From a virus (Duplodnaviria > Heunggongvirae > Uroviricota > Caudoviricetes): a DNA stretch of 12,979 bases. The stretch is from positions 1 through 12,979 of the IMG/VR virus record IMGVR_UViG_2778261447_000015; one strand, given 5' to 3'. A program made the translations under genes and the position numbers. A model generated the notes under the pieces. That model had not been told where the DNA came from. It did not search any database and saw only the letters and a list, made by a program, of their open reading frames with translations. How positions within the stretch are numbered: position 1 is the first letter of the stretch; each line of letters starts with the position of its first letter. This document shows positions 1,369-11,435 of the stretch, one piece after another.

Positions 1369-1444
1369 GCCGATATAGCTCAGTTGGTAGAGCAGCGCAT
1401 TCGTAATGCGAAGGTCGTAGGTTCGACTCCTATTATCGGCACCA
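1369..1444 (+). tRNA. thrW: tRNA-Thr (anticodon CGT), thrW-type
   Basis: 76 nt with acceptor stem GCCGATA/TATCGGC, D-loop AGCTCAGTTGGTAGAGC, anticodon loop TTCGTAA, T-arm GGTTCGACTCC, discriminator A and encoded CCA. A phage integrase gene starts 15 bp downstream. Confidence 0.92.
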
Positions 1445-8433: not shown

Positions 8434-8748
8434 CTATGTGGCTTTATATCTGCGCACTGAAATAATTGGGCAGTGTGTAATTCCAGCAGTCTTTTCCCAT
8501 CTCAACAATGGGATGCGGAATACTTCGAACTCCACCTTCCCGATATGGTCGTTTTGGAAATCCTTTTTCCCCACCAACCAAACCTTTTCAAATCTACGCT
8601 CTATAAGGAAAGCTGATGACCATCCATATTTAGAACCAGCTTTTAACGCTTCCTTTTTTGTCGGAAAGGTTGTAACAATGGAAATTATCTCATCAACTCG
8701 GAGACTTAAAAGATTATTGTCTTTAAAGCTAATTCCGTTCGACGCCAT
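8434..8748 (-). CDS. hypothetical protein immediately downstream of N, AT-rich
   Basis: 104 aa with ATG at 8748, 3 nt after the N stop, with GAGGGA inside the N 3' end. The region looks about 35-47% GC by eye. Confidence 0.45.
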   Translation of the reverse strand: MASNGISFKDNNLLSLRVDEIISIVTTFPTKKEALKAGSKYGWSSAFLIERRFEKVWLVGKKDFQNDHIGKVEFEVFRIPLLRWEKTAGITHCPIISVRRYKAT

Positions 8749-8751
8749 AAT

Positions 8752-9057
8752 TCATCCCTCATACAGTGGTTTGCTGCCTAATTTCATTTTCTGGCGACCA
8801 ACACAAGTCACACCCATTTCACTGCGTGGCTTGCGGTAGTAAATACGGTTCTGTTTACGCTCGACTTCTTCTGCCTTCTTGCAGCGAAGGCTTCCGAGTG
8901 ATGCTGCTTTATCTGCTCTGACGCAACCAGAGAGCTTTAGCTCAATTTTTCGCGCCAGTCGCTGCTCTTGCATTGCCTGTTCACGTTGAGCCTGTCTGCG
9001 TGCTCTGCGGCGATTTCTGGCGTTATCGTCAGCCAGATATGTAATTACTACTGTCAT
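8752..9057 (-). CDS. N: antitermination protein N
   Basis: 101 aa from ATG 9057 preceded by GGAGG at 5 nt. It has an N-terminal Arg-rich motif (DNARNRRRARRQAQ). The C-terminus (RKQNRIYYRKPRSEMGVTCVGRQKMKLGSKPL) parallels lambda N (RKNQRTWYSKPGERGITCSGRQKIKGKSIPL, recall). It is the first gene downstream of PL/nutL. Confidence 0.85.
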   Translation of the reverse strand: MTVVITYLADDNARNRRRARRQAQREQAMQEQRLARKIELKLSGCVRADKAASLGSLRCKKAEEVERKQNRIYYRKPRSEMGVTCVGRQKMKLGSKPLYEG

Positions 9058-9368
9058 GTTGACCTCCGATGAAACAACTTTGGAATTGATAGTGATTGCA
9101 AAGTGGTTTCTGGCCCCTCGAACTGAGGGGCAGAAAGAGCATCTCGCCACCTAATAGGTCGATGCTCGGATCGAGAGATTTAATTAACCTCGGTTTTGAA
9201 GTTATGCATTCACATAAATCCTCCTGTTGCATGTGCAGCATTGGCTGTGTTTGGCAGCTGCATTTCGCCTATGGAATTGACTTTGGCGGTGACGCGCCGG
9301 GTGCTTATCTTCAGGTTGCCGTCGTGCAGCTGCACTTCACGTCACCCCAAAGCCAACTACTCTTTGGT

Positions 9369-9409
9369 TCCCGCATTTCGGCGGGACAATCCCATCAATG
9401 TTAAAGAGC
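9369..9409 (-). promoter_or_regulatory. nutL (boxA GCTCTTTAAC plus boxB hairpin)
   Basis: Minus-strand boxA GCTCTTTAAC (9409..9400) and boxB TCCCGCCGAAATGCGGGA (9386..9369). Both are identical to the elements found downstream of cro, and they lie between PL and N. Confidence 0.7.
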
Positions 9410-9455
9410 CTGCCAATCTGTTCCGTTTGGCTTCCAGCGTCCTGCTGATGGCTAA

Positions 9456-9497
9456 AGAATACTGTAGGTATTTTATTGTGTAAATACCCAAGGTATT
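9456..9497 (-). promoter_or_regulatory. OL operators and PL promoter
   Basis: Two 15 bp sites, AATACTGTAGGTATT (9458..9472) and AATACCCAAGGTATT (9483..9497), 25 bp centre to centre. On the minus strand, -35 TTTACA (9484..9479) and -10 TATTCT (9461..9456) are separated by 17 nt and overlap the operators. Confidence 0.6.
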
Positions 9498-9629
9498 TAT
9501 TTTTGGTGAAATAATGATAAGCAAATGAATACAAAGGATATTTATTTTTTTCGGTGTCTGCTTGTTCAGTGCTTTTTATGCGGGATATGTGAAGTGGATC
9601 CCGATAGCTATTGCTGCCGGGATTATGAG

Positions 9630-9998
9630 TTAGTCAGCGAAGGTTAAGACGAGAATTACCTTAATGATGTCTGCTACAACAGACACGGCCATAGATAAAC
9701 CAAAGACGATCCAAGCCATAGAGATGTCTTCACTACCATCGTATAGAGTTCCGTAATCACTGGTGTAAGGCGTAAATGTCGCGCCTTGATACAATAGGTA
9801 TAAGCTTGATCCATAGAGGATAAATGCAGATATCCCTTGTATTGCCATGATCACCAGAATCATGAAACGAGCTGATCTATGCGCCCAAGCCTGGCTTATT
9901 TTTTCTGATAGAGATTTCGCAATAAAAGCATGCGCTAAGCCGTAAATTGTTGAGATTGCCAACATCCCCAAAAAGCTTGCTATAGCGGTTCCAACCAT
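9630..9998 (-). CDS. small integral membrane protein (three predicted TM helices) downstream of cI
   Basis: 122 aa from ATG 9998 preceded by AAGGGG at 5 nt; the longer ORF form would start with TTG at 10019. Three hydrophobic ~25 aa segments are separated by a basic loop (KSLSEKISQAWAHRSAR) and an acidic Tyr-rich loop. Same strand as cI, 17 nt after its stop. Confidence 0.55.
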   Translation of the reverse strand: MVGTAIASFLGMLAISTIYGLAHAFIAKSLSEKISQAWAHRSARFMILVIMAIQGISAFILYGSSLYLLYQGATFTPYTSDYGTLYDGSEDISMAWIVFGLSMAVSVVADIIKVILVLTFAD

Positions 9999-10015
9999 AA
10001 TCGCCCCTTGCGTGA

Positions 10016-10732
10016 TCAAACCAGCCTTAGTTTTGTCTCAATTGCAACGCCTATAATCTTGCAGTTTCCATTGATTGGCACGAGAGGCCATGCAGGATTA
10101 AGTCCCTTGAGGTATTTATTTCCGCCGTCGATTATCAGCTTCTTGAATGTTGCTTCGTTAGAGTCAGAAAGTTTTGCTATGACCAAGCTGCCGTTGATCG
10201 CCTCCCTTCCGGTATCGAAAAGAACGAATGTTCCCTCTGGAATGCTTAACCCAACCGGTGCCGTCATTGAATCACCTTCCACTTTAAGCCAGAACGCATT
10301 ACCTTGAATATGCGCGTCAGACTCAAGCCAAACATCTATGTCTTTAATGGTGTATGGTTCGCATGCTTCACACCACGAGCCAGCCTGGATACTGCTTAAC
10401 ACCGGATACCTCTTTCCTGCTCTGTATTCCCCTGCATACCTTACGTTGGCATCGCTCTTAAGGCTTTCTGCCTGTTCTGCAACCTTGGCAGCAATTGACT
10501 GGCTAAAATCAGCAATTGAGACTTGCAACAATCGTGCAAAACCAGATGCAACCTCAACGTTTAGCGCGTTTCTGCCATTAAGATAATGCCCTACCGCTCC
10601 TTGGGTGATACCCAGTTCATCAGCGATTGAGTATTGGGTTATTCCCAATTCTTTCTTTTTTGACTCATACAAAGCCTTAAGCCGCTTAGCGTCTTCGAGC
10701 TGTTCTGTCGTCAGTGATTTTTTATTTTCCAT
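10016..10732 (-). CDS. cI: CI repressor (HTH N-terminal domain, S24 LexA-like C-terminal domain)
   Basis: 238 aa with lambda-CI-like architecture (…LTTEQLEDAKRLKALYESKKKELGITQ…, C-terminal …FWLKVEGDSMTAP… and …FKKLI…). No Shine-Dalgarno precedes the ATG, consistent with a leaderless PRM transcript. Divergent from cro. Confidence 0.9.
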   Translation of the reverse strand: MENKKSLTTEQLEDAKRLKALYESKKKELGITQYSIADELGITQGAVGHYLNGRNALNVEVASGFARLLQVSIADFSQSIAAKVAEQAESLKSDANVRYAGEYRAGKRYPVLSSIQAGSWCEACEPYTIKDIDVWLESDAHIQGNAFWLKVEGDSMTAPVGLSIPEGTFVLFDTGREAINGSLVIAKLSDSNEATFKKLIIDGGNKYLKGLNPAWPLVPINGNCKIIGVAIETKLRLV

Positions 10733-10738
10733 AGCTTA

Positions 10739-10809
10739 ATTCTAATAGCTAAGGTACTTAAACTAAAAATACCCTGAGTATTGATTGCTTTGAATACCTG
10801 TAGTATTCT
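10739..10809. promoter_or_regulatory. OR operators with divergent PRM and PR
   Basis: Sites AATACCCTGAGTATT (10768..10782) and AATACCTGTAGTATT (10793..10807), plus a degenerate site AATAGCTAAGGTACT (10744..10758). PR candidate is -35 TTGATT (10781..10786) and -10 TATTCT (10804..10809) with 17 nt spacing. PRM -10 candidate is TAGAAT on the minus strand (10744..10739), 6 nt before the cI ATG. Confidence 0.65.
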
Positions 10810-10838
10810 TTGTTCATGGTTAATAACGGAGAGTGCAT

Positions 10839-11033
10839 ATGATTCGAATGACACTTGCCGATTACGCCAAAATCCATGGACAGGCTAAAGCAGCCAGTGA
10901 CTTTGGTGTAATCCAGTGCGCTATCAGCAAGGCCATTCTGGCAGGCCGTAACATCATGGTTACGGTAAAGCCTGATGGCAGTGTGATTGGAGAGGAAGTT
11001 CGTCCTTTCCCAAGCAACAAGAAAAACAAATAG
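10839..11033 (+). CDS. cro: Cro repressor
   Basis: 64 aa from ATG 10839 (the ORF track starts at GTG 10833). [33 protein letters not shown]…PFPSNKK parallels lambda Cro (recall). First gene of the PR operon. Confidence 0.85.
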
Positions 11034-11039
11034 TAACAC

Positions 11040-11095
11040 CGCTCTTTAACAGTCATGGTCCTCATTCCCGCCGAAATGCGGGAATACAACGCGCA
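11040..11095 (+). promoter_or_regulatory. nutR (boxA CGCTCTTTAAC plus boxB hairpin)
   Basis: boxA at 11040..11050 and boxB stem-loop ATTCCCGC-CGAAAT-GCGGGAAT at 11074..11095. It shares a 10-mer and an 18-mer with nutL, and lies between cro and cII. Confidence 0.7.
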
Positions 11096-11141
11096 TAAGT
11101 TGATGCGCATAACTTCTTATTTGTTAAGGAAATACTTACAT

Positions 11142-11435
11142 ATGGTTCGTGCAAACAAACGCAACGAGGCTCTACGAATCGAGAGTGCGTTGCTTAACAA
11201 AATCGCAATGCTTGGAACTGAGAAGACAGCGGAAGCTGTGGGAGTTGATAAGTCGCAGATCAGCAGGTGGAAGAGGGACTGGATTCCAAAGTTCTCAATG
11301 CTGCTTGCTGTTCTTGAATGGGGCGTCGTTGACGACGATATGGCTCGATTGGCACGACAAGTTGCTTCGATTCTCACCAATAAAAAACGCCCGGCGGCAA
11401 CCGAGCGTTCTGAACAAATCCAAATGGAATTTTAA
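11142..11435 (+). CDS. cII: CII transcriptional activator
   Basis: 97 aa from ATG 11142. The protein and the upstream RBS context (TAAGGAAATACTTACATATG) match lambda cII as I recall it, with about one substitution. The ORF-track form starting at 11055 is an in-frame upstream extension. Confidence 0.95.
   Translation: MVRANKRNEALRIESALLNKIAMLGTEKTAEAVGVDKSQISRWKRDWIPKFSMLLAVLEWGVVDDDMARLARQVASILTNKKRPAATERSEQIQMEF

What the first reader, a model, noticed from the sequence alone, without database searches (positions are those of the whole stretch)
9630..9998. Small three-helix membrane protein in the cI-adjacent (rex-equivalent) slot
A 122 aa protein with three long hydrophobic segments is encoded on the same strand as cI, 17 nt after its stop, and ahead of OL/PL. 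In a lysogen it would be co-transcribed with the repressor from PRM. In lambda this slot holds rexA/rexB, and in other lambdoid phages it holds lysogeny-expressed exclusion or defence genes. This protein shows no resemblance to RexB that I can see and there is no RexA partner. It is therefore a candidate standalone membrane-acting superinfection-exclusion or abortive-infection effector.
Basis: partly seen in the sequence, partly recalled or inferred. Interest (0 to 1): 0.6.

Follow-up and report, generated by a model that had tools for sequence, protein, structure and literature searches.

The report
hkaS: membrane protein gene after cI
The ORF is real and is hkaS, a small three-helix inner-membrane protein gene that has sat unstudied since 2001 directly behind the repressor gene of HK620-type prophages; it is a reasonable but untested candidate for a prophage factor that protects the lysogen against other phages.

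Summary
Window 9630-9998 (- strand) encodes a 122-aa protein with three hydrophobic helices. It starts 17 nt after the cI stop, has its own Shine-Dalgarno sequence, and lies ahead of OL/PL.

The gene is not new. It is hkaS of coliphage HK620 (96% identical, annotated "unknown") and belongs to PHROG 6534 ("unknown function"). I found no publication that characterises it.

The family is small: about 33 clusters at 90% identity, all 121-122 aa and at least 52% identical, all from Enterobacterales. In every context I read, the gene lies directly behind an S24 repressor and before N.
- It is present in 146 of 5426 complete E. coli genomes.
- It is intact in 80 of 80 IMG/VR loci.
- It is under purifying selection (piN/piS 0.25; dN/dS 0.15-0.2).
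- Its carriers include four different virion types.

In two loci the repressor is a chimera. It has a foreign DNA-binding domain and different operators, but it keeps the HK620-type C-terminal domain followed by hkaS.

The AlphaFold model is confident (pLDDT 93). No sequence, profile or fold search links the protein to RexB, SieA, Hex, holins or any PADLOC defence model.

Its function remains inferred. I rate a lysogen-expressed exclusion factor at the inner membrane as most likely (about 0.4). The slot was already known as a hotspot for prophage accessory genes ("morons"). Interest is moderate to low.

The parts
10016..10732 (-). cI repressor (238 aa), first cistron of the immunity operon
   Evidence: Pfam HTH_3 (8.1e-10) and Peptidase_S24 (5.2e-24). 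It is 99.6% identical to HK620 cI. A TAGAAT hexamer at 10739-10744, 6 nt before the ATG, suggests a leaderless PRM transcript as in lambda (sequence; inference).
10004..10009 (-). Shine-Dalgarno sequence AAGGGG of hkaS, 5 nt before the ATG, inside the 17-nt cI-hkaS spacer (9999-10015)
   Evidence: Sequence read directly. It is identical in HK620.
9630..9998 (-). hkaS: 122-aa protein with three transmembrane helices. Predicted topology: N-terminus periplasmic; loop 28-44 cytoplasmic (K28, K33, R41, R44); beta-hairpin 74-88 periplasmic (D81, D87, E90, D91); C-terminus cytoplasmic.
   Evidence: PHROG 6534, 1-122/122, E = 1.7e-78. 96% identical to HK620 HkaS. Hydropathy and charge distribution. 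AlphaFold pLDDT 93. Purifying selection.
9598..9623 (-). GC-rich stem-loop 6 nt after the hkaS stop; probable 3' end or terminator element of the cI-hkaS transcript. It has no U tract and is followed by a C-rich, G-poor stretch.
   Evidence: RNA fold: MFE -16.7 kcal/mol, z = -2.07. A hairpin of different sequence lies at the same place in five divergent loci. Canonical stem plus U-run terminators occupy this place in L130 and L191. C 16 versus G 6 in the next 55 nt.
9527..9543 (.). Distal operator-like site AAATATCCTTTGTATTC (probable OL3)
   Evidence: Pattern search. The site is conserved in all divergent relatives.
9482..9498 (.). Operator OL2, AAATACCTTGGGTATTT
   Evidence: Pattern search. 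It matches the HK620 OL2 annotation to within 2 nt.
9457..9473 (.). Operator OL1, AAATACCTACAGTATTC
   Evidence: Pattern search. It corresponds to the HK620 OL1 annotation.
9456..9484 (-). PL promoter (TTTACA, 17 nt, TATTCT)
   Evidence: Promoter scan. It corresponds to the pL annotation of HK620.
9369..9409 (-). nutL (boxA GCTCTTTAAC, boxB hairpin TCCCGC-CGAAAT-GCGGGA)
   Evidence: Motif coordinates. It corresponds to the nutL annotation of HK620.
8752..9057 (-). N antiterminator (101 aa from the ATG at 9057, preceded by GGAGG)
   Evidence: PHROG 271, E = 4.3e-39. Start context.
10743..10806 (.). OR operator region: cores at 10794-10806 and 10769-10781, plus a weaker third site at 10743-10759
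   Evidence: Pattern search. It corresponds to OR1-OR3 of HK620.
10839..11033 (+). cro (64 aa from the ATG at 10839)
   Evidence: Pfam Cro, 3.6e-26. It is 100% identical to HK620 Cro.

Best explanation
**What it is (shown).** This is hkaS, the second and last cistron of the repressor operon (PRM in the lysogen, presumably also PRE during establishment) of an HK620-type immunity cassette. The cassette sits in a lambdoid prophage integrated at tRNA-Thr next to proA.

**Protein features (predicted).** It encodes a 122-aa integral inner-membrane protein with three helices, N-terminus out and C-terminus in.
- A short basic cytoplasmic loop carries the invariant motif Q-A-W-x-H-R-x-A-R-F.
- A Tyr/Gly/Asp-rich periplasmic beta-hairpin sits at the tip of two long helices.
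- The third helix contains an invariant Asp110/Lys113 pair and ends in the invariant cytoplasmic tail LTFAD.

**Expression (inferred from anatomy).** It is made constitutively in the lysogen together with cI.

**Function (inferred by position, topology and analogy only).** It protects the lysogen, and hence the prophage, against other phages at the cytoplasmic membrane. I rate a block of genome entry as most likely, as in P22 SieA, T4 Imm and HK97 gp15. It has no RexA-like partner.

**Evolution (shown).** The gene travels with the 3' half of cI, not with any virion type and not with any operator specificity.
For: **Identity.** PHROG 6534 full-length match. 91-99% identity to hkaS or hypothetical genes in 16 phage records. 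The HK620 annotation reads cI - hkaS - tIMM - OL - pL - nutL - N. The window is nearly identical to HK620 from cI to nutL.

**Real gene.** Intact in 80 of 80 IMG/VR loci. piN/piS is 0.25 with piS similar to that of cI. dN/dS is 0.15-0.2.

**Operon.**
- The spacer is 17-19 nt in 79 of 79 loci, and the gene has its own Shine-Dalgarno sequence.
- The consensus scan of 8700-11100 found only PL on the - strand, with no promoter- or terminator-like site between cI and hkaS.
- A hairpin or intrinsic terminator follows the stop in every lineage inspected.

**Membrane topology.** Three hydrophobic cores; 4 K/R in loop 1 against 0 K/R and 4 D/E in loop 2. AlphaFold pLDDT 93, pTM 0.78.

**Slot logic.** Lambda rexAB. 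434 Hex is co-transcribed with cI and excludes P22 (PMC3564112). BstA lies behind cI, and the cI-N interval is described as an accessory-gene hotspot (PMC7067206, PMC8585504). My own survey of 80 related cI loci found diverse occupants.

**Analogy to SieA.** P22 SieA is a standalone inner-membrane protein with three transmembrane helices that blocks DNA injection (PMC10883804). My hydropathy and charge analysis gives it the same N-out/C-in layout.

**Conservation pattern.** Between genera, the periplasmic hairpin tip (residues 76-94) is the most variable part, while the helices and cytoplasmic motifs are conserved. That is the pattern expected if the tip sets specificity.
Against: - No experiment exists, and I found no paper that characterises hkaS.
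- SieA and HK97 gp15 are encoded among virion genes and act on their own virion type. hkaS rides on the immunity cassette in Lederbergvirus, Lambdavirus, Shamshuipovirus and Traversvirus genomes, so no target class can be deduced.
- Within E. coli the periplasmic hairpin is almost invariant (only singletons P77S and S89G among 80 loci). There is no sign of an arms race.
- The most conserved motifs face the cytoplasm, which would also fit a cytoplasmic partner.
Confidence: 0.4

Rival explanations
1. Abortive-infection effector. HkaS is a latent pore or ion-channel former, a RexB-like or holin-like protein working alone. It would depolarise the membrane when an infecting phage perturbs it, killing the cell before progeny are released.
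For: It occupies the rexB position. It has polar and charged residues inside its helices (Q54; the invariant D110/K113 pair) and small-xxx-small packing motifs. Its three-helix N-out/C-in layout is that of class I holins such as lambda S105 (my own knowledge). RexB is described as an ion channel in PMC8585504.
Against: There is no sensor partner and no cytoplasmic domain. hhalign against RexB gives probability 0.2%. It lacks the charged C-terminal tail, dual start and lysis-cassette location of holins (sequence). Constitutive expression from PRM of an unregulated pore former would be costly, yet the gene is intact in 80 of 80 loci.
Confidence: 0.15
2. Lysogenic-conversion factor unrelated to phages. 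A small membrane protein that modulates a host inner-membrane transporter, sensor kinase or protease (for example FtsH) and changes host physiology or stress tolerance.
For: Many small membrane proteins act as modulators of host membrane proteins (general knowledge). The conserved cytoplasm-facing motifs fit a conserved host partner across Escherichia, Salmonella, Citrobacter, Klebsiella, Cronobacter and Hafnia. Purifying selection acts without diversification.
Against: There is no similarity to any known modulator. Characterised occupants of this slot are mostly exclusion functions.
Confidence: 0.2
3. Modulator of the lysis-lysogeny switch. A membrane-anchored factor acting on the repressor's C-terminal domain, on RecA-stimulated cleavage, or on cII stability, in the way 434 Hex stabilises lysogens or RexA biases the lambda switch.
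For: hkaS stays attached to the HK620-type cI C-terminal domain (84-87% identical) in two chimeric repressors. L130 has a P22 c2-like DNA-binding domain and TTTAAG...CTTAAA operators; L191 has a third type. The conserved motifs are cytoplasmic. There are precedents in the same slot: Hex (PMC3564112), and RexA as described in the abstract of PMC11077077.
Against: Adjacency alone (a 17-nt gap) explains the linkage. Repressors whose C-terminal domain is 81-85% identical exist without hkaS (L105-L107). hkaS evolves about 18 times less constrained than cI (piN/piS 0.25 against 0.014), and at the protein level it diverges to 50-60% identity while cI stays at 86-95%. Hex is unrelated; it has only a signal-peptide-like N-terminus and no transmembrane core.
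Confidence: 0.12
4. Functionless passenger. An ORF that persists only because it is wedged between cI and OL and cannot easily be lost.
For: Co-occurrence with this repressor type is complete: 146 genomes and 147 places for each, and 79 of 79 IMG/VR loci. Constraint is relaxed relative to cI.
Against: piN/piS of 0.25 and dN/dS of 0.15-0.2 at dS above 0.6 show selection on the protein. There is no frameshift or stop in 80 loci. Length is held at 121-122 aa and 22 positions are invariant down to 52% identity. Related repressors with an empty slot show the gene can be absent.
Confidence: 0.03

Closest known systems
HkaS of coliphage HK620 (AAK28867; PHROG 6534), also annotated in HK630, HK140 and mEpX2
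   Same: It is the same gene: 96-99% identical, the same 17-nt spacing behind an identical cI, and the same OL/PL/nutL.
   Different: Nothing structural differs. There are a few conservative substitutions (F10L, I51M, T93S, V94M). The function of HkaS itself is unknown.
Lambda RexB (with RexA)
   Same: It occupies the same slot between cI and OL, is co-transcribed with the repressor, and is a small polytopic inner-membrane protein (PMC8585504).
   Different: RexB is 144 aa, is described as having four transmembrane helices, and needs RexA. There is no RexA here and no sequence relation (hhalign 0.2%).
P22 SieA
   Same: It is a standalone prophage-expressed inner-membrane protein with three predicted transmembrane helices, no signal peptide, and the same N-out/C-in charge pattern (PMC10883804).
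   Different: SieA is 164 aa with a 61-residue basic cytoplasmic loop. It has its own promoter next to the ejection-protein genes and targets P22-like ejection proteins. There is no sequence relation (hhalign 0.3%).
Phage 434 Hex
   Same: It is the second gene of the PRM-cI operon of a related S24 repressor (52% identical). It excludes a heterologous phage and stabilises the lysogen (PMC3564112).
   Different: Hex has only a signal-peptide-like N-terminus and a soluble body, and it overlaps the cI stop. It is unrelated in sequence. Hex homologues occupy this slot in other species (L158, L159, L167).
BstA of prophage BTP1 (and Stk of 933W)
   Same: They are defence genes placed directly behind the prophage repressor and driven by its promoter (PMC7067206, PMC8585504; Stk from my own knowledge).
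   Different: They are large soluble cytoplasmic proteins. BstA homologues also occur outside prophages, whereas every hkaS copy I examined lies behind one repressor type.
T4 Imm and HK97 gp15 (inner-membrane injection blockers)
   Same: They are small helical inner-membrane proteins that act alone (PMC10883804 discussion; my own knowledge).
   Different: They are different families encoded elsewhere in their genomes. I did not compare them directly here.

Membership tests
HkaS / PHROG 6534 | Full-length match to the family profile | tested here: met
   E = 1.7e-78, residues 1-122 on profile 1-122/122. All 27 aligned relatives match it.
HkaS / PHROG 6534 | Position directly 3' of an S24 repressor with an HK620-type C-terminal domain, and upstream of OL/N | tested here: met
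   True for the window, for 79 of 79 IMG/VR loci, and for all contexts read in six genera.
Lambda RexB | Sequence or profile similarity to RexB | tested here: not met
   hhalign probability 0.2%.
Lambda RexB | Adjacent rexA partner gene | tested here: not met
   There is no other ORF between cI and OL.
Lambda RexB | Location between cI and OL, in the repressor transcript | tested here: met
   Transcription itself is inferred.
P22 SieA | Sequence or profile similarity to SieA | tested here: not met
   hhalign probability 0.3%.
P22 SieA | Three transmembrane helices, inner membrane, no cleavable signal | tested here: inconclusive
   Prediction gives the same layout for both proteins. Localisation of HkaS has not been measured.
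P22 SieA | Blocks DNA injection of superinfecting phage | not testable with these tools
   This needs plating, K+ efflux and DNA-entry assays.
434 Hex | Sequence similarity to Hex | tested here: not met
   The Hex translation has no transmembrane core beyond a signal-like N-terminus and no resemblance. tblastn of HkaS relatives finds nothing in the Hex-bearing loci L158, L159 and L167.
Class I holin (lambda S105 type) | Three transmembrane helices N-out/C-in, plus a charged C-terminal tail, dual start and a lysis-cassette location | tested here: not met
   Only the helix layout matches. The C-terminus is LTFAD with no basic tail, there is a single start, and the gene lies in the immunity region.
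Known anti-phage defence systems (PADLOC-DB v2) | Match to any defence protein model | tested here: not met
   0 families at E up to 10. The library dates from 2023.
Any Pfam, NCBIfam or PDB family | Significant sequence or fold match | tested here: not met

The most novel reading that the evidence does not exclude
HkaS is a membrane-anchored partner of the repressor's C-terminal domain. Its invariant cytoplasmic motifs (QAWxHRxARF and the LTFAD tail) would bind cI, or RecA or FtsH, at the membrane. That would couple envelope state to repressor cleavage or stability and so tune prophage induction. This would explain why the cI C-terminal domain and hkaS are kept together under three different DNA-binding specificities.
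Probability: 0.07. Interest if true: 0.75.

Novelty: new member of a known kind. Interest (0 to 1): 0.35.

Why it matters
The gene sits in 2.7% of complete E. coli genomes (146 of 5426) and in phages of four genera, including Stx2c-converting phages. It is probably among the few prophage proteins made continuously in the lysogen. If it excludes phages, it would add a sequence-orphan family of small inner-membrane exclusion proteins, and it would affect phage host range and phage-therapy predictions for these strains. If instead it acts on the repressor or on host physiology, it would add a new kind of occupant of the rex slot. Either way, it is a cheap and well-defined knock-out target. The gene, the slot and the idea are not new; only the function is open.

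Tried and rejected
**Database and sequence searches**
- Pfam, NCBIfam and PADLOC scans gave nothing significant.
- The exhaustive phmmer search of 1.84 billion representatives found only one further true relative. The other hits (2371-, 2207- and 342-aa multi-stretch proteins) look like compositional or repeat noise; I inspected only the 342-aa one, which is an internal repeat.
- A PDB sequence profile search found nothing.

**Structure searches**
- afdb50 was not available.

**Direct comparisons**
- Profile comparisons with P22 SieA and lambda RexB were negative.

**Literature**
- Eight searches found no work on hkaS; the term 'hkaS' collides with a fungal herbarium code.
- The svsR small RNA paper (PMC12803456) concerns the 3' end of a cI gene, but I could not link it to this cassette.

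**Hypotheses considered and rejected**
- The 129-aa TTG start that overlaps the cI stop: all divergent homologues begin at the ATG, which has its own Shine-Dalgarno sequence.
- "The gene is only trapped between co-adapted operators": two chimeric repressors with other operator types still carry it.
- "This C-terminal domain needs hkaS": C-terminal domains that are 81-85% identical occur without it.
- Diversifying selection on the periplasmic loop: it is not seen within E. coli.
Full report
**Setting.** The window starts in proA (1-1254). It continues through tRNA-Thr(CGU) at 1369-1444 and then runs into a lambdoid prophage.
- On the - strand: integrase (1459-2619), an HTH_17 excisionase-like gene, DUF551, SSB, a Rad52-type recombinase and DUF2528.
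- Then N (8752-9057), the ORF in question (9630-9998) and cI (10016-10732), also on the - strand.
- On the + strand: cro, cII, an O-like replication gene and the start of a helicase.

**Observation.**
- The - strand ORF is listed as 9630..10019 (129 aa, TTG start). The ATG at 9998 gives 122 aa. It is preceded by AAGGGG at 10004-10009 with a 5-nt spacer. All homologues, down to 52% identity, start at this Met.
- cI ends at 10016, so the intergenic spacer is 17 nt.
- There are three hydrophobic cores, with Kyte-Doolittle peaks of 1.7, 2.15 and 2.3.
- Downstream lie three operator-like 17-mers (9543-9527, 9498-9482, 9473-9457), a PL-like promoter (9484-9456), nutL (9369-9409) and N.
- There is no second ORF between cI and OL.

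**Identity.** The protein matches PHROG 6534 ("unknown function") over its full length, with E = 1.7e-78.
- tblastn finds it at 91-99% identity in 16 phage records.
- In HK620 the gene is named hkaS with product "unknown". It is annotated between cI and a terminator tIMM, followed by OL3-OL1, pL, nutL and N.
- The window is almost base-for-base identical to HK620 from the end of cI to just upstream of N, and then diverges.
- The prophage therefore carries the HK620 immunity cassette, and the finding is a known but unstudied gene.
- Eight literature searches found no characterisation of it.

**Family size and distribution.** The family is small.
- A single-sequence search of 5.8 billion clusters returned 11 proteins.
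- An exhaustive phmmer pass over 1.84 billion representatives added one true relative.
- A profile search raised the total to 33 clusters. All are 121-122 aa apart from a few truncated or N-terminally divergent entries (111-129 aa). All are at least 52% identical. Sources name Escherichia, Salmonella, Citrobacter, Cronobacter, Klebsiella aerogenes and Hafnia, and Buttiauxella appears in the genome scan.
- In complete E. coli genomes, hkaS is found in 146 of 5426 genomes at 147 places. The HK620-type cI gives exactly the same numbers.
- All 16 phage records with a cI at 99% identity or more are the 16 that carry hkaS.

**Selection.**
- In 80 IMG/VR loci the gene is always intact. Where upstream DNA exists (79 loci), cI lies 17-19 nt upstream.
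- Synonymous diversity is similar in both genes (piS 0.033 for hkaS, 0.026 for cI). Non-synonymous diversity is far higher in hkaS: piN/piS is 0.25 against 0.014, with 25 protein alleles against 6.
- Between diverged lineages, dN/dS is 0.15-0.2 for hkaS and 0.03 for cI at comparable dS.
- The gene is therefore under purifying selection, but much more loosely than the repressor.
- Within E. coli the substitutions are conservative changes in the helices. The periplasmic loop is nearly invariant.

**Linkage.**
- The cassette cI-hkaS-OL/PL/nutL forms a single similarity cluster in 79 loci. The DNA beyond it falls into at least 32 types downstream and 10 types upstream.
- The carriers belong to Lederbergvirus (HK620), Lambdavirus (HK630), Shamshuipovirus (mEpX2) and Traversvirus (phi296, Stx-type). 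The gene is therefore independent of virion type.
- Across genera cI stays 86-95% identical with an identical recognition region (ITQGAVGHYLNGRN), while HkaS drops to 50-60%.
- Two loci break the link with operator specificity.
  - In L130 (Buttiauxella) the repressor has a P22 c2-like N-terminal domain (68-88% identical to c2 over the first 50 alignment columns). Operators of the type ATTTAAG-N4-CTTAAA lie on both sides. The C-terminal domain is still 84% identical to the HK620 type, and it is followed after 20 nt by an hkaS homologue and a canonical stem plus U-run terminator.
  - In L191 a third kind of N-terminal domain and a different Cro accompany an 87% identical C-terminal domain, hkaS and a canonical terminator.
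- Conversely, repressors whose C-terminal domain is 81-85% identical (L105-L107) lack hkaS. tblastn finds hkaS in only 1 of 80 species-representative loci with related repressors.
- The unit that moves is therefore "3' half of cI plus hkaS". The association is physical and frequent, but not obligatory.

**Transcription unit.**
- The consensus scan of 8700-11100 found no promoter- or terminator-like site on the - strand between the cI start and the hkaS stop. The only - strand hit is PL.
- Six nucleotides after the stop, a stem-loop forms at 9598-9623 (MFE -16.7 kcal/mol, z = -2.07).
- A hairpin of different sequence occupies the same place in Salmonella, Hafnia-like, K. aerogenes, Cronobacter and C. 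koseri loci. L130 and L191 have canonical intrinsic terminators there.
- This is what a conserved 3' end of a bicistronic cI-hkaS transcript would look like. The window's hairpin lacks a U tract and is followed by a C-rich, G-poor stretch (16 C, 6 G in 55 nt). Termination may therefore be Rho-dependent (inference).
- A TAGAAT hexamer 6 nt before the cI ATG suggests a leaderless PRM transcript as in lambda (inference from the sequence).

**The protein.**
- AlphaFold2 with seven sequences gives pLDDT 93 and pTM 0.78. The model has helices at 2-29, 31-38 (short), 41-73 and 89-121, with a beta-hairpin around residues 78-86.
- Loop 28-44 has four K/R. Loop 72-92 has none and four D/E. By the positive-inside rule the N-terminus and the hairpin are periplasmic, and loop 1 and the C-terminus are cytoplasmic.
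- In 27 aligned relatives the invariant residues cluster in two places: W38, H40, A43, R44, F45 (cytoplasmic loop and start of helix 2), and D110, K113, I115, T119, A121 with the near-invariant tail LTFAD (cytoplasmic end of helix 3). A further conserved stretch, Y67-L69-Y70-(Q)-G-A-T74-F, lies at the periplasmic end of helix 2.
- The hairpin tip (residues 76-94) is the most variable part between genera.

**Comparison with known systems.**
- There were no significant hits in Pfam, NCBIfam or PADLOC, and none among PDB sequences.
- hhalign against lambda RexB gave 0.2% and against P22 SieA 0.3%.
- 434 Hex occupies the same slot behind a 52% identical repressor. It is co-transcribed with cI, excludes P22 and protects the repressor from RecA-stimulated cleavage (PMC3564112). 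It is an unrelated protein with only a signal-like N-terminus.
- P22 itself has no gene between c2 and OL.
- The literature describes the cI-N interval as a hotspot of mosaicism and a common site of accessory loci, with rexAB and bstA as examples (PMC7067206, PMC8585504).
- My own surveys agree.
  - Among 80 species genomes with repressors 40-76% identical, 18 had no ORF of at least 40 aa starting within 200 nt of the cI stop. Three carried Hex homologues, a few carried small hydrophobic peptides, and the rest carried varied soluble ORFs. This was a crude ORF heuristic, and some short ORFs are probably spurious.
  - Among four related phages, two have no annotated or co-directional ORF directly behind cI, Fostie has an unexamined 97-aa hypothetical 155 nt downstream, and one has a 200-aa soluble protein.

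**Mechanism.**
- Shown: a conserved, selected gene for a predicted three-helix membrane protein, placed as the distal cistron behind cI.
- Inferred: expression in the lysogen, and a role at the inner membrane.
- I rate phage exclusion at the membrane as the most likely function (about 0.4). Within that I favour a block of genome entry, for these reasons:
  - the protein stands alone with no sensor domain or partner;
  - it shares the three-helix N-out/C-in layout of SieA, a proven injection blocker (PMC10883804);
  - its periplasmic tip varies between genera while the rest is conserved.
- Against this reading:
  - it is carried by four virion types, so no target can be deduced;
  - it shows no diversifying selection within E. 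coli;
  - its best-conserved motifs face the cytoplasm.
- Rivals:
  - a RexB- or holin-like abortive infection effector (0.15);
  - a modulator of host membrane physiology (0.2);
  - a Hex/RexA-like modulator of the switch (0.12), prompted by its persistence behind the same repressor C-terminal domain in chimeric repressors;
  - a functionless passenger (0.03), which purifying selection argues against.

**Verdict.**
- It is best filed as an uncharacterised member of the known class of repressor-operon accessory genes of lambdoid prophages.
- What this analysis adds: the family's narrow distribution, its strict position, its selection regime, its predicted topology and conserved motifs, and its linkage to the repressor's C-terminal domain rather than to immunity specificity.
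- Interest is moderate to low until a phenotype is shown.

Noticed in passing
L130:2007-3090 and L191:1797-2900: These loci carry chimeric repressors. L130 has a P22 c2-like DNA-binding domain and L191 a third type. Each is fused to an HK620-type S24 C-terminal domain (84-87% identical), is followed by an hkaS homologue and a canonical intrinsic terminator, and has different operators (L130) or a different Cro (L191). This shows a recombination joint inside cI at the domain linker.
   Followed up: partly
window 9527-9543 versus about 9504-9522: The best third operator-like site (AAATATCCTTTGTATTC) lies 45 bp centre-to-centre from OL2 and is conserved in all divergent relatives. The HK620 GenBank record places OL3, and its 'tIMM', about 20-25 bp closer to OL2, on a sequence with little operator resemblance. 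The deposited OL3/tIMM annotation may be misplaced.
   Followed up: partly
window 9598-9623, and the same position in L002, L007, L098, L100 and L103: A stem-loop directly after the hkaS stop is conserved in position, but its sequence differs in each lineage. It lacks a U tract in the window and is followed by C-rich, G-poor RNA, so termination may be Rho-dependent.
   Followed up: partly
L158, L159, L167 (directly 3' of cI): 135-aa homologues of phage 434 Hex, with a signal-peptide-like N-terminus followed by C-W-I/V-V/I-S/T, overlap or abut the stop of related repressors in Candidatus Erwinia dacicola, Pseudescherichia and Citrobacter genomes. Hex is thus a recurrent occupant of the same slot.
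   Followed up: no
window 8434-8748 (- strand): A 104-aa ORF lies immediately after N and matches PHROG 16670 (unknown function, E = 8.8e-40). It has no Pfam, NCBIfam or PADLOC hit. HK620 has a different gene (hkaQ) at this position. This is where the window stops resembling HK620.
   Followed up: no
window 1369-1444 and 1459-2619: tRNA-Thr(CGU) lies next to proA, followed 15 nt later by the end of a tyrosine integrase gene. This is the prophage's attachment site and left end.
   Followed up: partly
window 8752-9150, 10833-11033, 11055-11435: The mechanical ORF starts are too long for N, cro and cII. N most likely starts at the ATG at 9057 (preceded by GGAGG) and cro at the ATG at 10839 (as in HK620). 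For cII the Pfam CII match begins at residue 30 of the 126-aa ORF, which implies a start near 11142.
   Followed up: partly
L110, L117, L142, L147 (3' of related cI genes): Very small hydrophobic ORFs (43-52 aa, one or two predicted transmembrane helices) sit 8-40 nt behind related repressor genes in Tatumella, Proteus, Pantoea and Yersinia genomes. They may be another class of membrane peptides encoded in the repressor operon.
   Followed up: no
window 9630-9998 compared across 146 E. coli genomes: hkaS is 95-99% identical to the window in 132 of 146 genomes, while the adjacent cI is at least 99% identical in 144 of 146. The two neighbouring genes differ markedly in polymorphism, mostly at non-synonymous sites.
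   Followed up: yes
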